This document shows positions 209 to 6,090 of a DNA stretch of 6,354 nucleotides, one piece after another. The DNA comes from Candidatus Iainarchaeum sp. GTDB taxonomy: Archaea > Iainarchaeota > Iainarchaeia > Iainarchaeales > CSSED10-239. The number at the start of each line of letters is the position of its first letter. Position 1 is the stretch's first letter. The translations under genes were made by a program, and so were the position numbers. The notes beneath the pieces were generated by a model that saw only the letters and a program-made list of their open reading frames with translations, was not told where the DNA came from and searched no databases. The stretch covers positions 1-6,354 of the forward strand of contig PWLL01000048.1 in NCBI GenBank assembly GCA_003559395.1, written 5' to 3'.

Positions 209-532
209 CTATTTTTTTTTAACAGATAAATAAATATTAAGAACAAAGATAAACACAAATACAAAAATTAAAACAATTATACCAGAAGAAGCATAAGAGA
301 CTAAACCCGTGATTTTTGAAGTCGTATCTGTTGTTTTTTCTTCTTCAACAACGGTTTTATCTAAAGGAACATTTATATCTAAAGAAAGACTTTTTTTTTC
401 TGAATCTCTAGTTAATATTCTTTCTTCTGATTCGTTTGTATCTTGAGTATCTATGTTTTCTGTAGCATAAACAAAAGAAGTGCTTATGAAAAATACTAGA
501 CACAACAAAACAAATATTTTTTTCGCATACAT
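209..532 (-). CDS. Small (107 aa) secreted or surface-anchored protein with an N-terminal signal peptide, an acidic Thr-rich middle and a C-terminal TM helix plus KKK tail
   Basis: The N-terminus MYAKKIFVLLCLVFFISTSFVYA/TE looks like a Sec signal with an AxA-like cleavage site. The middle region is rich in D, E and T. The C-terminus GIIVLIFVFVFIFVLNIYLSVKKK is a hydrophobic helix followed by a basic tail. No competing plus-strand ORF exists here. No homology is recognised. Confidence 0.65.
   Translation of the reverse strand: MYAKKIFVLLCLVFFISTSFVYATENIDTQDTNESEERILTRDSEKKSLSLDINVPLDKTVVEEEKTTDTTSKITGLVSYASSGIIVLIFVFVFIFVLNIYLSVKKK
212..220 (+). terminator. T9 tract 6 nt after the TGA of the upstream plus-strand gene; candidate archaeal-type oligo-T terminator
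   Basis: tgaaactattttttttt: the T9 run at 212-220 lies inside the KKK-coding 3' end of the convergent minus-strand gene. The mirror A8 run at 191-198 gives a T8 tract downstream of the minus-strand gene's stop. Confidence 0.3.
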
Positions 533-713: not shown

Positions 714-1646
714 ATGAACACAAAATTTTTAAAAGATTTAAAAGAAACAACTTCTAAAGAAGTTGGAGGTAAAGGATATTCTCTTAGTAAAATTTATTCT
801 TTAGGCTATAATGTGCCAAATGCTTTTGTTGTTTTTTCATGTGTTTTTGATGAATTTCTTATAGAAAATAAACTTTTAGATAAAATAAAGCTAAATCTTT
901 CAAAAGTTAATTTAAAAGAACCAAAAACAATAAAAAAAGCATCAGATCAAATTCAAGAACTTTTTTTAAAAACACCAATTTCTTCTTCTTTAAAACAAGA
1001 AATAATATCATCCTATAAAAAACTCAAAACTCAAAAAGTAGCCATAAGATCATCTGCAACAGCAGAAGATTCAAAAAAAGCTTCTTGGGCTGGACAATTG
1101 GATACTTTTTTGTATGTTTCTAAGAAAGATGTTATAGAATCTATAAAAAAATGTTGGGCATCTTTATACAATGAAAGAGCAATCTATTATAGATTTTTAA
1201 AAAAACAAGACAAAAAAGATATATCTGTAGCAGTTGTTGTCCAAAAGATGGTTGATTCTAAAGTTTCTGGTGTTAGTTTTTCTGTAAACCCAGTGACAGA
1301 AGATAAAACCCAAATAATTATTGAAAGTGCTTATGGTTTAGGTGAAGCCATTGTTTCAGGTCAAATATCAACAGATTGTGTTGTAGTTTCAAAAAAAAGC
1401 CTTAAGATTTTAGAAAAAAATATAGTTACTAAAAAAAGAGCCTTATATAAAAATAAACAAAAATATGGGTGGAAGAAAATTTCTTCTAATCTTCAAAAAA
1501 AACAAAGCCTTACTGATCAACAAATAAAAAAAATATCTATAATGATTATAGATCTAGAAAAAATAAACAAATGTGCTGTTGATATAGAATGGACACTAGA
1601 TCAAAAAATATATCTTTTGCAAGTAAGACCTATAACAAATCTATAA
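714..1646 (+). CDS. Stand-alone PPDK_N-type ATP-grasp (nucleotide-binding) domain protein of the PEP synthase / pyruvate-phosphate dikinase / rifampin phosphotransferase superfamily
   Basis: Three motifs match the N-terminal domain of PpsA, PPDK and RPH: VGGKGYSLSKIYSLGYNVPNAFVV (GGKxxxL...G.xVPxGF), VAIRSSATAEDSKKASWAGQLDTFLYV (RSSAxxEDxxxxSFAGQ) and KCWASLYNERAIYYR. The C-terminal DIEWTLDQKIYLLQVRPIT is the canonical end of that domain. The protein stops exactly there at 310 aa, with no swivel or TIM-barrel domain. Confidence 0.9.
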   Translation: MNTKFLKDLKETTSKEVGGKGYSLSKIYSLGYNVPNAFVVFSCVFDEFLIENKLLDKIKLNLSKVNLKEPKTIKKASDQIQELFLKTPISSSLKQEIISSYKKLKTQKVAIRSSATAEDSKKASWAGQLDTFLYVSKKDVIESIKKCWASLYNERAIYYRFLKKQDKKDISVAVVVQKMVDSKVSGVSFSVNPVTEDKTQIIIESAYGLGEAIVSGQISTDCVVVSKKSLKILEKNIVTKKRALYKNKQKYGWKKISSNLQKKQSLTDQQIKKISIMIIDLEKINKCAVDIEWTLDQKIYLLQVRPITNL

Positions 1647-1649
1647 AAA

Positions 1650-2411
1650 ATGATTATTATGCCACCAAGAAATAAAAAAACAATTTATGATAAACAAAAT
1701 ATCCATGACCCTTTGATAAAATTGTCATTTGGAAGACATGGACAAAAAAACCCAATAACAGGAAATCTTACAAAAAAAGGAAAAAAAGATGCAAGACAAA
1801 GAGCAAAAAAAATAAATCCTAAGAAAGTGTTTAAAGCATATACAAGTTCAGAAAAAAGAGCAAAACAAACTTTAGAAATAATTAAAGAAAACACAAAACA
1901 AAAATATAAAAGTGCTGTTAAAAAAGAACTGAACGAAAATAATGCTTTTGTTTTTTCAAAAAATACAAAAAAAATAATTGATTTTTTTAAGAATCTTGCA
2001 GGTAATAACAAATTTGCAAAAAGAACAGCAAATAAATGGCTTAACCATAAAATATCTGCAAAAATTATGAGGGCCCCAGAAGAAGTTGCAGATGAGGTTA
2101 TTAGAAAAAGAATAGGGTTAGTTGTTAGGTTTATAAGACTTAAAGAAAGTCAAGGAAAAATAAAAGAAACACCAAAAATACATATGGAAGCTATAACACA
2201 TGCAGGAATAATAATGCCTGTTTATGAAAGATTAACAGGATACAAATATTTTGAAAAATACAATGATATGCCAAATGTGAAAGAAACACTTACCTTTAAC
2301 TTTTCTCCATATAAAAAAGGAGAAGTAAAAATACTAATGAACTTTCGTAAAAGAAACTTTGATGTTACTGAAAAAGTTTATGAGATTTTAAAACAACAAA
2401 AAGTTTTATAG
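1650..2411 (+). CDS. Histidine phosphatase superfamily (branch 1, phosphoglycerate-mutase / SixA-like fold) protein
   Basis: The RHG catalytic motif FGRHGQK is present (R29-H30-G31, nt 1734-1742). It is followed by LTKKGKKDARQRAKKI and YTSSEKRAKQTLEII, which fit the LTxxGxxQA and SSxxxRAxQT patterns. The second catalytic His lies in AITHAGII (H184, nt 2199-2201). The start is 3 nt after the upstream stop. An alternative start is the ATG at 1659. Confidence 0.82.
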   Translation: MIIMPPRNKKTIYDKQNIHDPLIKLSFGRHGQKNPITGNLTKKGKKDARQRAKKINPKKVFKAYTSSEKRAKQTLEIIKENTKQKYKSAVKKELNENNAFVFSKNTKKIIDFFKNLAGNNKFAKRTANKWLNHKISAKIMRAPEEVADEVIRKRIGLVVRFIRLKESQGKIKETPKIHMEAITHAGIIMPVYERLTGYKYFEKYNDMPNVKETLTFNFSPYKKGEVKILMNFRKRNFDVTEKVYEILKQQKVL

Positions 2412-3407
2412 TTTTTTAATAATTCCTTTGCTTAAATTAATTTCTACATAATCTTTATTTTTTATATTAGAGAAAAGATCACTAACATTAACAACGCAAG
2501 GGATTTTGTTTTCTCTAGCAAAAATAGATGCATGTGAAAGTTTTGTTCCTTGTTCAGTAATAATGGCTTTTATTTCATTAATATAAGGAAAAAAATCAGG
2601 ATTTATTTTTTTTGCACACAATATTTTATTTTTACATTTTTGTAATTCCTTTTTATTTTTAATAACCATTACTTTTCCACAAATGAAATTTTCTTTATTT
2701 TTGCTAGTTACAACTCCTTTAAGAGATTTGTGTTTATTAACTTTTTTTAAATCTGAAAATATTTTATTTATCTTATTTTGATCATATGAAAAAGTTTCTT
2801 TATTAGCTTTTATATAATAGATAAATCCTTTTTTTCTTTGTTTTATTTGTTTTTCAAGATTAGTAATATTTATTTTATTTTCAATTATTTTTTCAACTTC
2901 TGAAATTGTTAAAAATAAAAGATCGTTTTTATTTATTTTTAATAAGTTTGATGTTTTTTCAAGAAAAGGAGTAATATATTTATAATGATCATTGTTCTTT
3001 ATATCTTTATAAGCTTTATTGTTTAGTTCGTTTTTTATATCACATTCATAATATATAAATCTATTATAAAAATCAAAAAATCTTAGTAATTTGAAAATTA
3101 ATAACAAATCTTCTTTTTTTTTAAGATTAATAAAATAAGTTTTTAGATCAAACATTATTTTTTTTAGTTTTTTTATGTTTTTATTAATTGTTTTTCTTTT
3201 ATTTTTAAAATTGTTTTTTGCAGAAGTACAATGTCTTTTATTTACAAGCTTAACAAATTGTTTGTTTTTGTAAATAATAATAATGTCTGGATATGTACAA
3301 TCAATTATTTTTTTATAATTAAAGTTTTTATCTGCAATACTGTTTAAGAAAATTCCTTGTTCTATATCTTTGTTAATATACCAGTCTCTAAGATTAATAT
3401 CAAACAT
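2406..3407 (-). CDS. Two-domain protein: an unrecognised N-terminal region of about 225 aa fused to a C-terminal PEP-utilizer mobile (phosphohistidine swivel) domain
   Basis: The C-terminal ~105 aa read LKGVVTSKNKENFICGKVMVIKNKKELQKCKNKILCAKKINPDFFPYINEIKAIITEQGTKLSHASIFARENKIPCVVNV. This fits the swivel-domain pattern G.xxxG.vxvi....ILVa..t.P.....l..v.gixTexGGxTSHaAIvARelgIPxVV. The candidate phospho-acceptor is His292 (codon at 2532-2534). The N-terminal region (about nt 2724-3407) is K/N-rich and looks helical, with no family motif I recognise. Confidence 0.85.
   Translation of the reverse strand: MFDINLRDWYINKDIEQGIFLNSIADKNFNYKKIIDCTYPDIIIIYKNKQFVKLVNKRHCTSAKNNFKNKRKTINKNIKKLKKIMFDLKTYFINLKKKEDLLLIFKLLRFFDFYNRFIYYECDIKNELNNKAYKDIKNNDHYKYITPFLEKTSNLLKINKNDLLFLTISEVEKIIENKINITNLEKQIKQRKKGFIYYIKANKETFSYDQNKINKIFSDLKKVNKHKSLKGVVTSKNKENFICGKVMVIKNKKELQKCKNKILCAKKINPDFFPYINEIKAIITEQGTKLSHASIFARENKIPCVVNVSDLFSNIKNKDYVEINLSKGIIKKL
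2412..2417 (+). terminator. T6 tract immediately after the TAG of the histidine-phosphatase gene; candidate oligo-T terminator
   Basis: The sequence tag-tttttt at 2409-2417 lies within the KK-coding 3' end of the convergent minus-strand gene. Confidence 0.25.
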
Positions 3408-3490: not shown

Positions 3491-4210
3491 ATGAGATTAG
3501 ACAAATATTTATTAAAAAATAAACAAATAGATACTAGAAGTAAAGCAATATACTTTATAAAAAGTCAAAAAATAAAAATAAACAACCAAATAATAACAAA
3601 ACCAGCCTATAATATAAAACCAGAAGACAAAATACAGATTATTCCTAAAAAAATATATGTTAGCAAAGGAGCTTATAAACTAGAAAGTTTTTTAGAAAAA
3701 ATTTCATTTTCAATAGAAAATAAAACGATTTTAGATGTTGGTTGTTCAACAGGCGGATTTACTCATTATTTTTTAGAAAATAAAGCGAAACAAGTAGTTG
3801 CTATTGATGTTGCTAAAGATATAATATCTAAAAAACTCTTAAAATATAATAATTTAATATATAAAGATCAGATAGATGCAACAAATAAAGAAAATATTAA
3901 TTGTTTGCTAGATAGAAAAGTAGATGTTATATCTATAGATGTAAGTGATATATCTGTAAAAAAAGTATTATGTGCTGTACATGAATATCTTAAAAAAAAA
4001 GGAGCAATAATTCTATTATATAAACCACACTACGAAGGAGGAAAAGGAATTGTTTCAAAAGAAGAAAAACAAAAATTATTAGAAACTTTTGAAAAATGGA
4101 TTGTTGATAATAATATCTATAAGATCATACATAAAATAAACTCATCAGAAAGAGGAGGATATAATCTTAAAGGTAACAGAGAGATATTTTATATGTTAAA
4201 GCTTAAGTAA
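3491..4210 (+). CDS. tlyA: TlyA-family rRNA (cytidine-2'-O)-methyltransferase with an S4-like RNA-binding domain plus an FtsJ/RrmJ-type SAM methyltransferase domain
   Basis: MRLDKYLLKNKQIDTRSKAIYFIKSQKIKINNQIITKPAYNIKPEDKI is the S4 domain. YVSKGAYKLESFLEKISFSIENKTILDVGCSTGGFTHYFLENKAKQVVAIDVA matches the TlyA signature YVSRGxxKL...DxGxSTGGFTD...GAxxVxAxDV. ISIDVSDIS and LYKPHYEGGKG correspond to DVSFISL and KPQFE. Confidence 0.88.
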   Translation: MRLDKYLLKNKQIDTRSKAIYFIKSQKIKINNQIITKPAYNIKPEDKIQIIPKKIYVSKGAYKLESFLEKISFSIENKTILDVGCSTGGFTHYFLENKAKQVVAIDVAKDIISKKLLKYNNLIYKDQIDATNKENINCLLDRKVDVISIDVSDISVKKVLCAVHEYLKKKGAIILLYKPHYEGGKGIVSKEEKQKLLETFEKWIVDNNIYKIIHKINSSERGGYNLKGNREIFYMLKLK

Positions 4211-4273: not shown

Positions 4274-4630
4274 ATGCCTCTAAAAAAAGTAAGAGTTGTT
4301 AAAAAACTAACAGCATTAGAAGAAAAACAAAAACTATATCAACAAAAAGGAGAAATATTAGATGTTTTTCTTAAATTTGATAAAGCATATAATCTAATAA
4401 AGCAGAAAAAAAAGCTTTCTGGAAGAAACTCATTTGAACAAAGTTTTGCAGAACTTAAAGCCATTAGTATTAAAATAAAAAAGTCAAATATATCTGAAAT
4501 AAAAAAACAAGAAATTTTAAAAAAACTTCAAGAAAACTTAAAACAAGAGCTCTTAAAAATAAAAGAAGTTTATCCTTTTCCAGAAAAACTAAAGAAAATA
4601 GAAAGATATATTATTTCTATCTATCCTTGA
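4274..4630 (+). CDS. Hypothetical lysine-rich, predicted coiled-coil protein (118 aa)
   Basis: This is an ORF in otherwise uncovered sequence. A partial SD-like GTGAT lies at 4264-4268, 5 nt before the ATG. Heptad-like K/E/L patterning occurs, for example KKQEILKKLQENLKQELLKIKE. No family is recognised. Confidence 0.5.
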   Translation: MPLKKVRVVKKLTALEEKQKLYQQKGEILDVFLKFDKAYNLIKQKKKLSGRNSFEQSFAELKAISIKIKKSNISEIKKQEILKKLQENLKQELLKIKEVYPFPEKLKKIERYIISIYP

Positions 4631-4714: not shown

Positions 4715-5173
4715 ATGAAGAATATGTATGAACAAAAAATAGAAAAAATTACACTTAAAAAAATACGAAAAAAATTTAATAAATATTACTCTTTTTGTTA
4801 TGATGATGATTTTAGAAAGTGGGTTGATAGCTATGATTATATATCATATACTTTAAATAATAAAAAAATAATCGCAACACTACTTATTAAAGAATGTCCT
4901 GAGTTTCCAAGAATTTGGCAACTAGGAAGAATAATCGTAAATGAAGATTTTAGAAAAAATAATGTTGGTTCTAAACTTTTAAAAAATACAGAAGATTTTA
5001 TAAAAGAAAAAAACGGAGCCAAAATACTTGTGCATGTTTCAGATACAAACAAACCCGCACAAGCTTTCTATAAGAAAAACAACTATCTAAAAGAAGCAAC
5101 TATTAAAAAAATGAAACTAGGAAAAGAAAATCTGAACATATATAGTAAAGAAATAAAAGGAGATAAAAGATGA
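4715..5173 (+). CDS. GNAT-family N-acetyltransferase
   Basis: GNAT motif A and the acetyl-CoA pocket are recognisable in LGRIIVNEDFRKNNVGSKLLKNTEDFIKEKNGAKILVHVSDTNKPAQAFYKKNNY (hxVxxxxRxxGhGxxLh ... N..A..FYxKxGF). The 152-aa size is typical. An alternative start is the ATG at 4724. Confidence 0.85.
   Translation: MKNMYEQKIEKITLKKIRKKFNKYYSFCYDDDFRKWVDSYDYISYTLNNKKIIATLLIKECPEFPRIWQLGRIIVNEDFRKNNVGSKLLKNTEDFIKEKNGAKILVHVSDTNKPAQAFYKKNNYLKEATIKKMKLGKENLNIYSKEIKGDKR
5159..5162 (+). promoter_or_regulatory. Shine-Dalgarno (GGAG) for pyrB, inside the 3' end of the GNAT gene
   Basis: In aaggagataaaagATG the GGAG lies 7 nt upstream of the ATG at 5170. The pyrB ATG overlaps the GNAT TGA (ATGA at 5170-5173). 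Confidence 0.5.
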
Positions 5174-6090
5174 AAGATATAAAAAATATAATTTCAATAA
5201 AAGATTTATCTTCAGAACAAATAAACTATATTCTTACAGTTGCAGAAGATATTGAAAAAAATCCAGAAAAATATAAAAATATACTTAGAGGAAAAGTTAT
5301 TGCGAGCTTGTTTTTTGAACCATCAACAAGAACAAAACTCTCATTTGAAACTGCAATAAAAAAACTTGGAGGAAATACTGTTGGGTTTGATGATATACAA
5401 ACAACTTCTGTAAAGAAAAAAGAAACCTTTAGTGATTCAATAAAAGTAATTGCAGGCTATTCAGATCTTGTTGTTATGAGAACAAAAATTGAAGGTGCTT
5501 CAAGACTTGCAAGCGAAATGACAGATAAACCCATAATTAATGGAGGAGATGGAACAAACCAACATCCAACACAAACACTCCTAGATCTTTATACTATTAA
5601 AAAAGAAAAAAAACTTGAGAATCTAACAATTGGTTTTTTTGGAGATTTAAAATATGGTAGAACCGTTCATTCTCTTGTTGAAGCAATTTCTTTATATCAA
5701 CCAAAAAAAATAAAATTTATTTCTGCTCCTCAATTTGGAATCGGTAAAGAATATTTAGAAATGTTAGATAAAAAAGAAATTGAATATGAAATACATGAAG
5801 AAGCAAAAGGAAATCTTAAAGATTTAGATATTTTGTATGTTACACGTACGCAAGTAGAAAGAATAGTAGAACCAATAGAAATAGAACCTTTGAAAAAAAA
5901 ATATACAATTACTAAAGAACTTTTAGATGCAGAAGAAAATCCAGAATTAATAGTTATGCATCCACTACCAAGAGTCTATGAAATTTCAAAAGAAATAGAT
6001 GATACAAAACATAATGTTTATTTTAAACAATCAAATAACGGAATACCAGTAAGAAAAGCACTAATATGTATTCTTTTAAAACTTGTATGA
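5170..6090 (+). CDS. pyrB: Aspartate carbamoyltransferase catalytic subunit
   Basis: All ATCase signature blocks are present: FFEPSTRTKLSFETA (STRT carbamoyl-phosphate loop), VVMRTKIEGASRLA, INGGDGTNQHPTQTLLDLYTI (HPTQ), GDLKYGRTVHSL, YVTRTQVERI and HPLPRVYEI. The 306-aa length is typical. It is followed directly by pyrI. Confidence 0.97.
   Translation: MKDIKNIISIKDLSSEQINYILTVAEDIEKNPEKYKNILRGKVIASLFFEPSTRTKLSFETAIKKLGGNTVGFDDIQTTSVKKKETFSDSIKVIAGYSDLVVMRTKIEGASRLASEMTDKPIINGGDGTNQHPTQTLLDLYTIKKEKKLENLTIGFFGDLKYGRTVHSLVEAISLYQPKKIKFISAPQFGIGKEYLEMLDKKEIEYEIHEEAKGNLKDLDILYVTRTQVERIVEPIEIEPLKKKYTITKELLDAEENPELIVMHPLPRVYEISKEIDDTKHNVYFKQSNNGIPVRKALICILLKLV

What the first reader, a model, noticed from the sequence alone, without database searches (positions are those of the whole stretch)
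1650..2411. Histidine-phosphatase-fold gene wedged between the ATP-grasp and swivel genes: possible reset or erase component of the phosphotransfer module
The middle gene carries the RHG motif (R29-H30-G31), the SSxxRAxQT block and the second catalytic His (H184) of histidine phosphatase superfamily branch 1. This fold includes SixA, a bona fide phosphohistidine phosphatase, as well as many small-molecule phosphatases. It starts 3 nt after the ATP-grasp stop and its 3' end overlaps the swivel gene by 6 nt, so the physical linkage is very tight. There are two non-exclusive inferences. It may dephosphorylate the phospho-His292 carrier, acting as a regulator or safety valve. Alternatively it may remove the phosphate installed on the unknown substrate, giving a write/erase pair. 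An established precedent for a dikinase plus phosphatase cycle is plant starch phosphorylation by glucan-water dikinase and dephosphorylation by SEX4/LSF2, although those phosphatases have a different fold. I know of no described system that pairs a PPDK_N/swivel dikinase with a His_Phos_1 protein.
Basis: partly seen in the sequence, partly recalled or inferred. Interest (0 to 1): 0.68.

Follow-up and report, generated by a model that had tools for sequence, protein, structure and literature searches.

The report
Histidine-phosphatase gene linked to split dikinase
The gene at 1650-2411 is a real, apparently active histidine-phosphatase-fold enzyme from a previously undescribed family in tiny (DPANN-type) archaea, and it sits next to ATP-grasp/swivel dikinase genes far more often than chance allows, so the two probably work together, although what it dephosphorylates is still unknown.

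Summary
ORF 1650-2411 (+, 253 aa) has R29-H30-G31, S66-S67-x-x-R70-A-x-Q-T and H184. It passes Pfam His_Phos_1 (30.6 bits against a cutoff of 21.7). A confident AlphaFold model (pLDDT 85) matches only histidine-phosphatase-superfamily structures. It starts 3 nt after the PPDK_N stop.

The swivel gene (2406-3407) is on the opposite strand. The 6-nt overlap is therefore convergent and the two genes do not share an operon.

The protein belongs to a distinct family of about 220-260 aa. R29, H30, R70 and W130 are invariant, and H184 is kept in at least 90% of members.

Gene context gives mixed but positive support for coupling to the dikinase:
- All four sampled lineages of a distant clade (about 24% identity) have a fused PPDK_N...swivel dikinase directly downstream.
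- One further lineage has PPDK_N directly upstream, and another has a swivel-only gene downstream.
- Five lineages have neither. These include the window's closest relatives, which have orf107 | phosphatase | orf118 instead.

Nothing points to SixA-like specificity: the protein has a large helical cap and resembles small-molecule phosphatases. My best guess (0.4) is that it hydrolyses the dikinase's phosphorylated product, as HpeD does beside HpeHI. I class it as a new variant of a known kind.

The parts
1650..2411 (+). Histidine phosphatase superfamily (branch 1-like) gene, 253 aa, with catalytic R29, H30, R70, E96 and H184. It belongs to a distinct family of about 220-260 aa that has an invariant Trp (W130) in the helical cap and a C-terminal 'FDVT' motif.
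714..1646 (+). Stand-alone ATP-grasp (PPDK_N) protein, 310 aa. It is the likely nucleotide-binding component of a two-component RPH/HpeHI-like dikinase. Its ORF ends 3 nt before the phosphatase start codon, so the two genes are probably co-transcribed.
   Evidence: PF01326 at E 1e-89 over residues 15-309. It is 43-46% identical to the N-terminal domain of the fused dikinases in L012-L017 and 56% identical to the L002 orthologue.
2406..3407 (-). Swivel (PEP-utilizers mobile domain) protein, 333 aa, with H292. It is the likely phospho-carrier and substrate-binding component. It is convergent with the phosphatase gene and overlaps its 3' end by 6 nt.
   Evidence: PF00391 at E 2e-18 over residues 259-328. 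Residues 141-331 align to the C-terminal 190 aa of the 844-aa fused dikinase of L013 (29% identity, E 1e-25).
209..532 (-). orf107, a small protein with hydrophobic N- and C-terminal segments. It is the conserved divergent upstream neighbour of the phosphatase gene in relatives that lack PPDK_N. I treat it as a synteny marker, not as part of the module.
   Evidence: tblastn hits in L001, L004 and L010 lie directly upstream of the phosphatase homologue.
4274..4630 (+). orf118, with no family match. In L010 it is the direct downstream neighbour of the phosphatase homologue. I treat it as a synteny marker.

Best explanation
The gene encodes a catalytically competent histidine-phosphatase-fold enzyme. 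It belongs to a previously uncharacterised family found in small-genome (DPANN-type) archaea, and this family is functionally coupled to an RPH/HpeHI-like water dikinase.

In the window the dikinase is split into two proteins: PPDK_N (714-1646), which binds ATP, and a swivel protein (2406-3407). H292 of the swivel protein would take the beta-phosphate of ATP and pass it to a substrate bound by its own N-terminal part.

The phosphatase is probably co-transcribed with PPDK_N. Its most likely role is to hydrolyse the phosphate ester made by the dikinase, or that of a later intermediate, through a phospho-H30 enzyme intermediate. It would then be the second, 'erase' step of a phosphorylate-then-dephosphorylate route, as the HAD phosphatase HpeD is beside the split dikinase HpeHI.

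What is shown: the fold, the conservation of the catalytic residues, and the non-random gene linkage. What is inferred: that the enzyme acts on the dikinase's product rather than on the phospho-His carrier, and that this product is a small molecule.
For: Fold and active site:
- Pfam match above cutoff.
- Profile against PDB reaches E 1.7e-9, with RH, R70 and the second His aligned to the PhoE catalytic residues.
- AF2 model with pLDDT 85; the top 50 Foldseek hits are all histidine phosphatases.
- R29, H30 and R70 are invariant and H184 is kept in at least 90% of 45 members.

Gene linkage:
- PPDK_N is directly upstream on the same strand in the window and in L002, where the phosphatase is 48% and PPDK_N 56% identical to the window's proteins.
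- A fused PPDK_N...swivel gene lies 86-127 nt downstream on the same strand in all four sampled lineages of the Iainarchaeum-type clade.
- A 495-aa swivel-only gene lies directly downstream in L020.
- A rough neighbour-joining tree places these three arrangements in three separate parts of the family.
- If a random gene has a dikinase neighbour with probability 0.006 (my assumed rate), three or more independent cases among 12 lineages has P about 5e-5.

Small-molecule leaning:
- The model has a helical cap of about 70 residues (helices 104-116, 120-131, 143-167).
- The best structural matches by target-normalised TM-score are GpgP, PhoE, RosC, phosphoserine phosphatase and TIGAR. No SixA chain is in the top 50.

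Precedent: the hpe cluster encodes the split dikinase HpeHI and the phosphatase HpeD (PMC9618137, PMC12167813).
Against: - Five of the 12 lineages have no dikinase gene beside the phosphatase: L001, L003-5, L010, L018 and L019. This set includes the window's closest non-strain relatives. The enzyme can therefore be kept without local linkage and may have a dikinase-independent job.
- In the genome that carries two paralogues, the one nearer to the window's protein (P0026, in L019) is the one that is not next to the dikinase.
- No enzyme that would transform a phosphorylated intermediate is conserved in these loci. A plain kinase-plus-phosphatase pair would be a futile cycle unless it is regulated.
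- The substrate is unknown.
- Capped histidine phosphatases such as Sts-1 and PGAM5 do act on proteins, so the cap argument is weak.
- The independence of the 12 lineages and the background rate used in the enrichment estimate are my assumptions.
Confidence: 0.4

Rival explanations
1. The enzyme is a phosphohistidine phosphatase acting on the carrier. It removes the phosphate from phospho-H292 of the swivel protein, or of the several swivel modules in the fused versions. It would reset or throttle the dikinase, in the way SixA acts on NPr and on the catalytic phospho-His of Ndk.
For: - The gene linkage is the same as for the best explanation.
- In L020 the only dikinase part beside the phosphatase is a swivel protein.
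- No pathway enzyme is conserved in the loci.
- The profile also matches the protein phosphatases Sts-1/2 and PGAM5 (E about 2e-5 to 1e-4).
- Precedents: SixA on NPr (PMC7948535, PMC6282199) and SixA on the Ndk phospho-His intermediate (PMC12934123).
Against: - SixA chains are among the weakest profile matches (E 0.04-0.13) and are absent from the top 50 fold matches.
- The protein is about 90 residues longer than SixA and has a helical cap over the active site. The comparison with SixA's size and lack of a cap is from my own knowledge.
- In L002 the neighbour is PPDK_N and not a swivel gene.
- Stand-alone swivel homologues have no such phosphatase nearby.
- Stripping the carrier would turn the dikinase into an ATPase.
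Confidence: 0.2
2. The enzyme is an independent housekeeping phosphatase. It has its own substrate, and its position next to dikinase genes reflects inherited or accidental gene order with no shared function.
For: - Five of the 12 lineages lack the linkage.
- In the window's own clade the stable neighbours are orf107 and orf118, not the dikinase genes.
- The swivel gene is convergent rather than operonic.
- The four Iainarchaeum-type loci share wider synteny (DNA ligase, SIMPL, AA_kinase, ProRS), so their linkage could count as a single inherited event.
- The paralogue in L019 lies beside unrelated genes, CysD and CysNC.
Against: - The linkage recurs in three different gene orders in three separate parts of the family tree.
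- The Iainarchaeum-type clade keeps the pair adjacent down to 42% phosphatase identity, while the other neighbours vary.
- The spacing to PPDK_N is only 3 nt in the window and about 2-10 nt in L002.
Confidence: 0.25
3. The enzyme is a phosphoryl-relay or transferase partner. H30 accepts the phosphate from phospho-H292 (His to His) and passes it on to an acceptor, or the relay primes a mutase-type reaction. The histidine-phosphatase fold would then be the dikinase's third catalytic domain and not an eraser.
For: - Histidine-phosphatase-fold enzymes work through a phospho-His intermediate, and some are transferases or mutases. This is established knowledge of the family.
- The dikinases here lack the PEP/pyruvate (PEP-utilizers_C) domain.
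- The Glu proton donor that aids hydrolysis is not conserved across the family.
Against: - The fused dikinases carry about 400 residues between PPDK_N and swivel, and this region can serve as a substrate domain as it does in RPH.
- HpeH alone carries out phosphotransfer without a third protein (PMC12167813).
- No fusion of this family with PPDK_N or swivel was found among 150 profile hits.
- There is no direct evidence for this reading.
Confidence: 0.1

Closest known systems
HpeHI with HpeD (hydroxyphenylethanone pathway of Rhodococcus), and the related split dikinases CreHI and phenylphosphate synthase PpsAB
   Same: These systems have a two-component RPH-like dikinase: a separate ATP-grasp protein plus a swivel/substrate-binding protein. 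In the hpe cluster a phosphatase removes the installed phosphate later in the pathway (PMC12167813, PMC9618137).
   Different: - HpeD is a NagD-like HAD-fold phosphatase, not a histidine phosphatase.
- HpeH is 71 kDa, whereas the swivel protein here is 333 aa.
- The hpe cluster contains a carboxylase that acts between the kinase and phosphatase steps. No such enzyme is conserved here.
- Those systems are bacterial aromatic catabolism. These loci are from small-genome archaea.
- The swivel gene here is on the opposite strand.
SixA (phosphohistidine phosphatase, His_Phos_1)
   Same: It belongs to the same superfamily and has the same RH...R...H catalytic core. It dephosphorylates phospho-His on phosphotransfer proteins: NPr of a PTS whose enzyme I carries a swivel domain, and Ndk (PMC7948535, PMC6282199, PMC12934123).
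   Different: - SixA is about 160 aa and has no cap domain (my own knowledge). This protein is 253 aa with a helical cap of about 70 residues.
- The NCBIfam SixA model scores 19.6 bits against a cutoff of 74.5.
- SixA PDB chains score only E 0.04-0.13 against the family profile.
PhoE/YhfR, GpgP (Rv2419c), PspA, CobC and RosC: small-molecule phosphatases of His_Phos_1
   Same: They are among the best sequence-profile matches and give the highest target-normalised TM-scores, about 0.6. They are of similar size and have a capped active site.
   Different: - Sequence identity is only 12-16%.
- This family has its own invariant Trp (W130), a C-terminal beta-hairpin with an 'FDVT' motif, and a non-conserved G of RHG. 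Most members have no conserved Glu donor, and many have 'THD' instead.
Rifampin phosphotransferase (RPH) and PigC/RedH-type dikinases
   Same: The fused partners in L013-L017 have the RPH layout, with an ATP-grasp domain, a long middle region and a C-terminal swivel domain. They hit the RPH, PigC and 'PEP synthase' NCBIfam models only over the two end domains.
   Different: None reaches any equivalog cutoff. Some carry three swivel modules behind a single ATP-grasp domain. I know of no histidine-phosphatase partner described for RPH or PigC, and searches found none.
Glucan, water dikinase with SEX4/LSF2 (plant starch)
   Same: It is a dikinase write step paired with a phosphatase erase step on one substrate.
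   Different: The phosphatases have a dual-specificity fold, the genes are eukaryotic and unlinked, and the substrate is a polymer.

Membership tests
Histidine phosphatase superfamily, branch 1 (Pfam PF00300) | Sequence match to the family model above the curated cutoff. | tested here: met
   30.6 bits against a cutoff of 21.7, E 3.3e-7. Only residues 39-108 are aligned. The L010 homologue scores 29.1 bits.
Histidine phosphatase superfamily, branch 1 (Pfam PF00300) | Catalytic core: the Arg-His of 'RHG' at the end of strand 1, a second Arg, and a second His after a strand, all conserved. | tested here: met
   R29, H30 and R70 are invariant and H184 is kept in at least 90% of 45 members. They align to the PhoE RHG, Arg and THG. 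In the model they sit after strands 23-29, 60-65 and 177-183. G31 is not conserved.
Histidine phosphatase superfamily, branch 1 (Pfam PF00300) | Glu proton donor after strand 3 (branch 1), as opposed to the Asp of an 'HD' motif (branch 2). | tested here: inconclusive
   E96 is invariant in the six close sequences and lies after strand 88-90. It is not conserved family-wide, and many members have 'THD'.
Histidine phosphatase superfamily, branch 1 (Pfam PF00300) | The alpha/beta fold of the superfamily. | tested here: met
   The model has pLDDT 85.4. Foldseek gives 259 PDB matches at E<=1e-3, the top 50 are all superfamily members at probability 1.00, and the target-normalised TM-score reaches 0.60.
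SixA phosphohistidine phosphatase (TIGR00249) | Score above the equivalog cutoff, and a small cap-less architecture of about 160 aa. | tested here: not met
   19.6 bits against a cutoff of 74.5. The protein is 253 aa with a helical cap. SixA chains score E 0.04-0.13 and are not in the top 50 fold matches.
SixA phosphohistidine phosphatase (TIGR00249) | Dephosphorylates phospho-His on a protein substrate. | not testable with these tools
   This needs biochemistry.
Cofactor-dependent phosphoglycerate mutase (TIGR01258 and related models) | Score above the model cutoff. | tested here: not met
   22.8 bits against a cutoff of 81.7. All dPGM equivalogs are far below their cutoffs.
Two-component RPH-like small-molecule dikinase (HpeHI/CreHI/PpsAB type), for the neighbouring genes | A separate ATP-grasp (PPDK_N) protein and a separate protein with a C-terminal swivel domain carrying the conserved His, with no PEP-utilizers_C domain. 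| tested here: met
   PF01326 at E 1e-89 in the 310-aa protein. PF00391 at E 2e-18 at residues 259-328 of the 333-aa protein, with H292 in TxxGTxxxH. No third domain is present. The two parts are fused in relatives.
Two-component RPH-like small-molecule dikinase (HpeHI/CreHI/PpsAB type), for the neighbouring genes | The two components are encoded together and act together. | tested here: inconclusive
   In the window they are adjacent but on opposite strands. The closest swivel homologue, P0007 at 49% identity, has no PPDK_N within a 15-kb contig. Activity was not tested.
Known anti-phage defence systems (PADLOC) | Any match of the three proteins to a defence-system model. | tested here: not met
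   No hits at E<=0.01.

The most novel reading that the evidence does not exclude
This histidine-phosphatase family could be a dedicated protein partner of archaeal swivel dikinases, acting directly on the phospho-His carrier. In one version it resets the carrier. In the other it takes the phosphate onto its own H30 and passes it on. Either would make this a three-protein His-to-His phosphorelay built from metabolic-enzyme folds, in organisms that largely lack classical two-component systems. In the Iainarchaeum-type loci, one ATP-grasp domain would charge several swivel modules.
Probability: 0.2. Interest if true: 0.8.

Novelty: new variant of a known kind. Interest (0 to 1): 0.5.

Why it matters
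If the coupling is real, it defines a new, compact phosphorylate/dephosphorylate module in DPANN-type archaea, whose reduced genomes keep few accessory enzymes. It also gives a functional handle on two large sets of 'hypothetical' or mis-named genes. One set is the family of about 220-260 aa, which sources leave unnamed or call 'PhoE'. The other is the many 'PEP synthase-like' proteins that lack the PEP domain.

It extends the recently recognised subfamily of two-component small-molecule dikinases (HpeHI, CreHI, PpsAB) to archaea. It also adds a histidine-phosphatase-fold partner where only HAD phosphatases were known.

If the target turned out to be the phospho-His carrier itself, this would be a new example of enzymatic control of a catalytic phosphohistidine, alongside SixA acting on NPr and Ndk.

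Tried and rejected
- **Pattern scans with the close alignment.** A genome-contig scan with the six-sequence alignment found no relatives. The metagenome scan added only L010 and a duplicate of L007.
- **Broader alignments.** A4 worked but gave only three loci. A proper co-occurrence census was therefore not possible.
- **First structure model.** The model built on a six-sequence MSA was poor (pLDDT 65) and its fold matches were weak. I replaced it with the 23-sequence model.
- **Single-sequence PDB search.** It gave only marginal PhoE hits at E 0.07.
- **Approach from the swivel side.** The contexts of three stand-alone swivel homologues showed no phosphatase and no PPDK_N.
- **Fusion search.** I looked among the deep hits for fusions of the family with dikinase domains. 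The long hits are tRNA synthetases or tandem generic His_Phos_1 proteins, not dikinase fusions.
- **Defence system.** Rejected, because PADLOC gave no hits.
- **RNA features.** There are no tRNA or Rfam matches in the window.
- **Promoter and terminator scan.** The sigma-70 and terminator scan is uninformative in this DNA of about 23% GC, which is probably archaeal: 26 sites found against 24 expected.
- **Regulatory Thr of PPDK/PpsA.** PPDK and PpsA carry this Thr two residues before the catalytic His (my own knowledge). It is absent here, where the motif is L-S-H, so a PDRP/PpsR-type control site is not present.
- **Opposite-strand ORF.** I regard the ORF at 1685-2011 (-) as spurious, because the plus-strand frame is conserved across homologues of 44-55% identity.
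Full report
**1. What is in the window**

The 6354-base window is about 16-30% GC. It carries these ORFs:
- orf107, 209-532 (-)
- a 310-aa ORF, 714-1646 (+)
- the 253-aa ORF of the finding, 1650-2411 (+)
- a 333-aa ORF, 2406-3407 (-)
- a TlyA-type rRNA methyltransferase, 3491-4210 (+)
- orf118, 4274-4630 (+)
- a GNAT acetyltransferase, 4715-5173 (+)
- aspartate carbamoyltransferase, 5170-6090 (+)

Pfam assigns the 310-aa protein to PPDK_N (E 1e-89) and the C-terminus of the 333-aa protein to the PEP-utilizers swivel domain (E 2e-18). It assigns the 253-aa protein to His_Phos_1 at 30.6 bits against a cutoff of 21.7. No NCBIfam equivalog cutoff is reached by any of the three proteins.

**2. Check of the observation**

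The phosphatase start codon follows the PPDK_N stop after 3 nt, and the ORFs 1650-2411 and 2406-3407 share 6 nt.

The wording of the finding hides one fact. The swivel gene is on the minus strand, so the two genes converge and cannot share a transcript.

The fold assignment is solid:
- A profile of 45 family members finds PDB histidine phosphatases down to E 1.7e-9. The RH pair, R70 and the second His align to the corresponding PhoE residues.
- A first AlphaFold model from six sequences was poor, with pLDDT 65.
- A second model from 23 sequences reached pLDDT 85.4 and pTM 0.85. It gave 259 PDB matches at E<=1e-3, and the top 50 are all histidine-phosphatase-superfamily structures.
- In the model the catalytic residues sit at the canonical places. 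R29/H30 are at the end of strand 23-29, R70 follows strand 60-65, E96 follows strand 88-90, and H184 follows strand 177-183.

**3. The family**

The word-indexed search found only five relatives, at 98, 54, 48, 46 and 46% identity. An exhaustive profile search found 150 proteins at E<=1e-3 and 37 at E<=1e-10. Several dozen of these are full-length matches of 213-290 aa.

In an alignment of 45 of them, R29, H30, R70 and W130 are invariant, and H184, L195, V239 and T240 are kept in at least 90%. The family has its own signatures:
- a 'W-L-D/N-G-K' motif in the helical cap
- an 'A-V-F-E-R-L-T-G' helix after the second His
- a C-terminal 'F-D-V-T' motif

The G of RHG and the Glu donor (E96) are not conserved outside the window's own clade, and many members read 'THD'. 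Named members come from 'archaeon' and 'Candidatus Iainarchaeum' MAGs. L010 carries a diphthamide-synthase-domain gene. From this I infer that the window is from a DPANN-type archaeon.

**4. Gene context, which is the core test**

*Strain variants.* L007 and L008 are 99.3-99.4% identical in DNA to the window. They repeat its arrangement and do not count as independent.

*The window's own clade:*
- L002 (phosphatase 48% identical) has a 310-aa PPDK_N (56% identical) ending 1-10 nt before the phosphatase start. Its convergent downstream gene is PurD, not a swivel gene.
- L001 (54%) and L003-5 (46%) have an orf107 homologue divergently upstream and no PPDK_N or swivel gene.
- L010 (51%), a 20-kb stretch of a 118-kb contig, reads orf107 | phosphatase | orf118 with no dikinase gene.
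- L006 has too little upstream sequence to judge.

Relative to L010, the window has PPDK_N inserted on one side of the phosphatase and swivel plus TlyA on the other.

*A distant clade.* This clade is about 20-25% identical to the window's protein and 41-79% identical within itself. All four lineages I could look up have a PPDK_N domain starting 86-127 nt downstream on the same strand. That domain is 43-46% identical to the window's PPDK_N. It is fused to a long middle region and a C-terminal swivel domain, giving proteins of 844, 799 and 1894 aa. In L012, L015 and L016 two further swivel modules follow.

*The remaining part of the family:*
- L020 has a 495-aa swivel-only protein directly downstream.
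- L018 has CutA and topoisomerase VI genes instead.
- L019 is a paralogue in the same genome as L012. It lies beside sulfatase-like, CysD and CysNC genes.

*Tally.* A dikinase gene is the immediate neighbour in 7 of 12 lineages, in three different gene orders, located in three separate parts of a rough neighbour-joining tree. I assumed a generous background of 0.6% for a random gene to have such a neighbour. Counting only the three arrangement types as independent events then gives P about 5e-5. The background rate and the independence of the events are my assumptions.

*View from the swivel side.* The association is not visible from this direction. Three stand-alone swivel homologues at 49, 36 and 30% identity have neither PPDK_N nor this phosphatase nearby.

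**5. The neighbouring genes as a dikinase**

Residues 141-331 of the window's swivel protein align to the C-terminal 190 residues of the fused 844-aa protein (E 1e-25). The window's PPDK_N aligns end to end with that protein's N-terminal domain. This fusion argues that the window's two genes are partners.

The layout matches the recently characterised two-component subfamily of RPH-like small-molecule dikinases. In that subfamily, HpeI, CreI and PpsB are the ATP-grasp parts, and HpeH, CreH and PpsA are the swivel plus substrate-binding parts (PMC12167813). The fused proteins hit the 'PEP synthase', RPH and PigC models only over the two terminal domains and reach no cutoff. None has a PEP-utilizers_C domain. 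They are therefore not PEP synthases.

**6. Mechanism**

*Shown:* an intact histidine-phosphatase active site, probable co-transcription with the ATP-grasp component, and recurrent linkage with dikinase genes.

*Inferred:* the target of the phosphatase. I favour hydrolysis of the phospho-ester that the dikinase makes, or that of a later intermediate, for three reasons:
- The model has a helical cap of about 70 residues over the active site.
- The closest structures by sequence profile and by fold are small-molecule phosphatases: PhoE, GpgP, phosphoserine phosphatase, RosC and TIGAR. SixA scores poorly against the family.
- A split dikinase encoded together with a phosphatase that removes the installed phosphate is an experimentally established pattern. 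HpeHI with HpeD is the example (PMC9618137).

The weaknesses of this reading are real:
- No intermediate-transforming enzyme is conserved in the loci.
- Five lineages lack the linkage.
- In the one genome that carries two paralogues, the copy nearer to the window's protein is the unlinked one.
- Capped family members such as Sts-1 and PGAM5 act on proteins.

The phosphohistidine-phosphatase reading stays open, with SixA on NPr and Ndk as precedents (PMC7948535, PMC6282199, PMC12934123). So does a His-to-His relay, and so does plain non-functional synteny.

**7. Comparison with what is known, and novelty**

Membership of histidine phosphatase branch 1 is met on the model score, the catalytic core and the fold. 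The proton-donor feature is inconclusive across the family. Membership of SixA and of dPGM is not met.

A histidine-phosphatase-fold partner, in archaea, with partly multi-swivel dikinases, is not described in the literature I could search. I therefore class this as a new variant of a known kind.

**8. Verdict**

The specific phospho-His 'reset' idea has no positive support.
- Interest is moderate, at 0.5.
- The most novel reading still open is a direct protein-level partnership with the phospho-His carrier. I give it a probability of about 0.2.

Noticed in passing
L016 8823-14507; L015 5977-11908; L012 about 8815-16729: The Iainarchaeum-type loci encode multi-swivel dikinases. A single PPDK_N domain is followed by three modules that each end in a swivel domain. 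These form one 1894-aa protein in L016, and three genes of 799, 480 and 683 aa in L015, the last of which is fused to a NicX/Peptidase_M29-like domain. One ATP-grasp domain may charge several carrier and substrate modules.
   Followed up: partly
window 209-532 (-) and 4274-4630 (+); L010 9492-9809 (-) and 10700-11101 (+): orf107 is a small protein with hydrophobic ends, and orf118 has no family match. In L010 they are the direct flanks of the phosphatase gene, and orf107 also flanks it in L001 and L004. Relative to L010, the window has PPDK_N inserted on one side and swivel plus TlyA on the other.
   Followed up: partly
alignment A2, family-wide: The Glu proton donor (E96) is conserved only in the window's clade. 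Many other members have 'THD' after the second catalytic His, which resembles the His-Asp arrangement of branch-2 acid phosphatases. Branch-2 enzymes were also among the top Foldseek matches.
   Followed up: no
P0037 (1161 aa) and P0128 (1043 aa), from the deep profile search: These are class-I aminoacyl-tRNA-synthetase-like proteins that carry two to four generic His_Phos_1 domains inserted in or appended to the catalytic domain.
   Followed up: no
L019 5433-14990: A paralogue of the family (P0026) occurs in the same genome as L012. It lies between sulfatase/phosphodiesterase-like genes and a CysD plus CysN/CysC (sulfate activation) pair, which hints at a different substrate context for that copy.
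   Followed up: no
L013/L014 13832-14289; L020 4132-4567: HicA/HicB toxin-antitoxin pairs lie within a few kb downstream of the phosphatase-dikinase pair in two unrelated loci.
   Followed up: no
window 5170-5173: The GNAT acetyltransferase ORF (4715-5173) overlaps the start of the aspartate carbamoyltransferase ORF (5170-6090) by 4 nt, which suggests translational coupling of two functionally unrelated genes.
   Followed up: no
window 1650-2411 compared with L007 238-990: Between the window and its strain variant at 99.3% DNA identity, the phosphatase gene has 4 non-synonymous and 2 synonymous codon differences (K72Q, I77M, T82I, Q84P). All four lie in the helix after R70. TlyA has no non-synonymous differences.
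   Followed up: no
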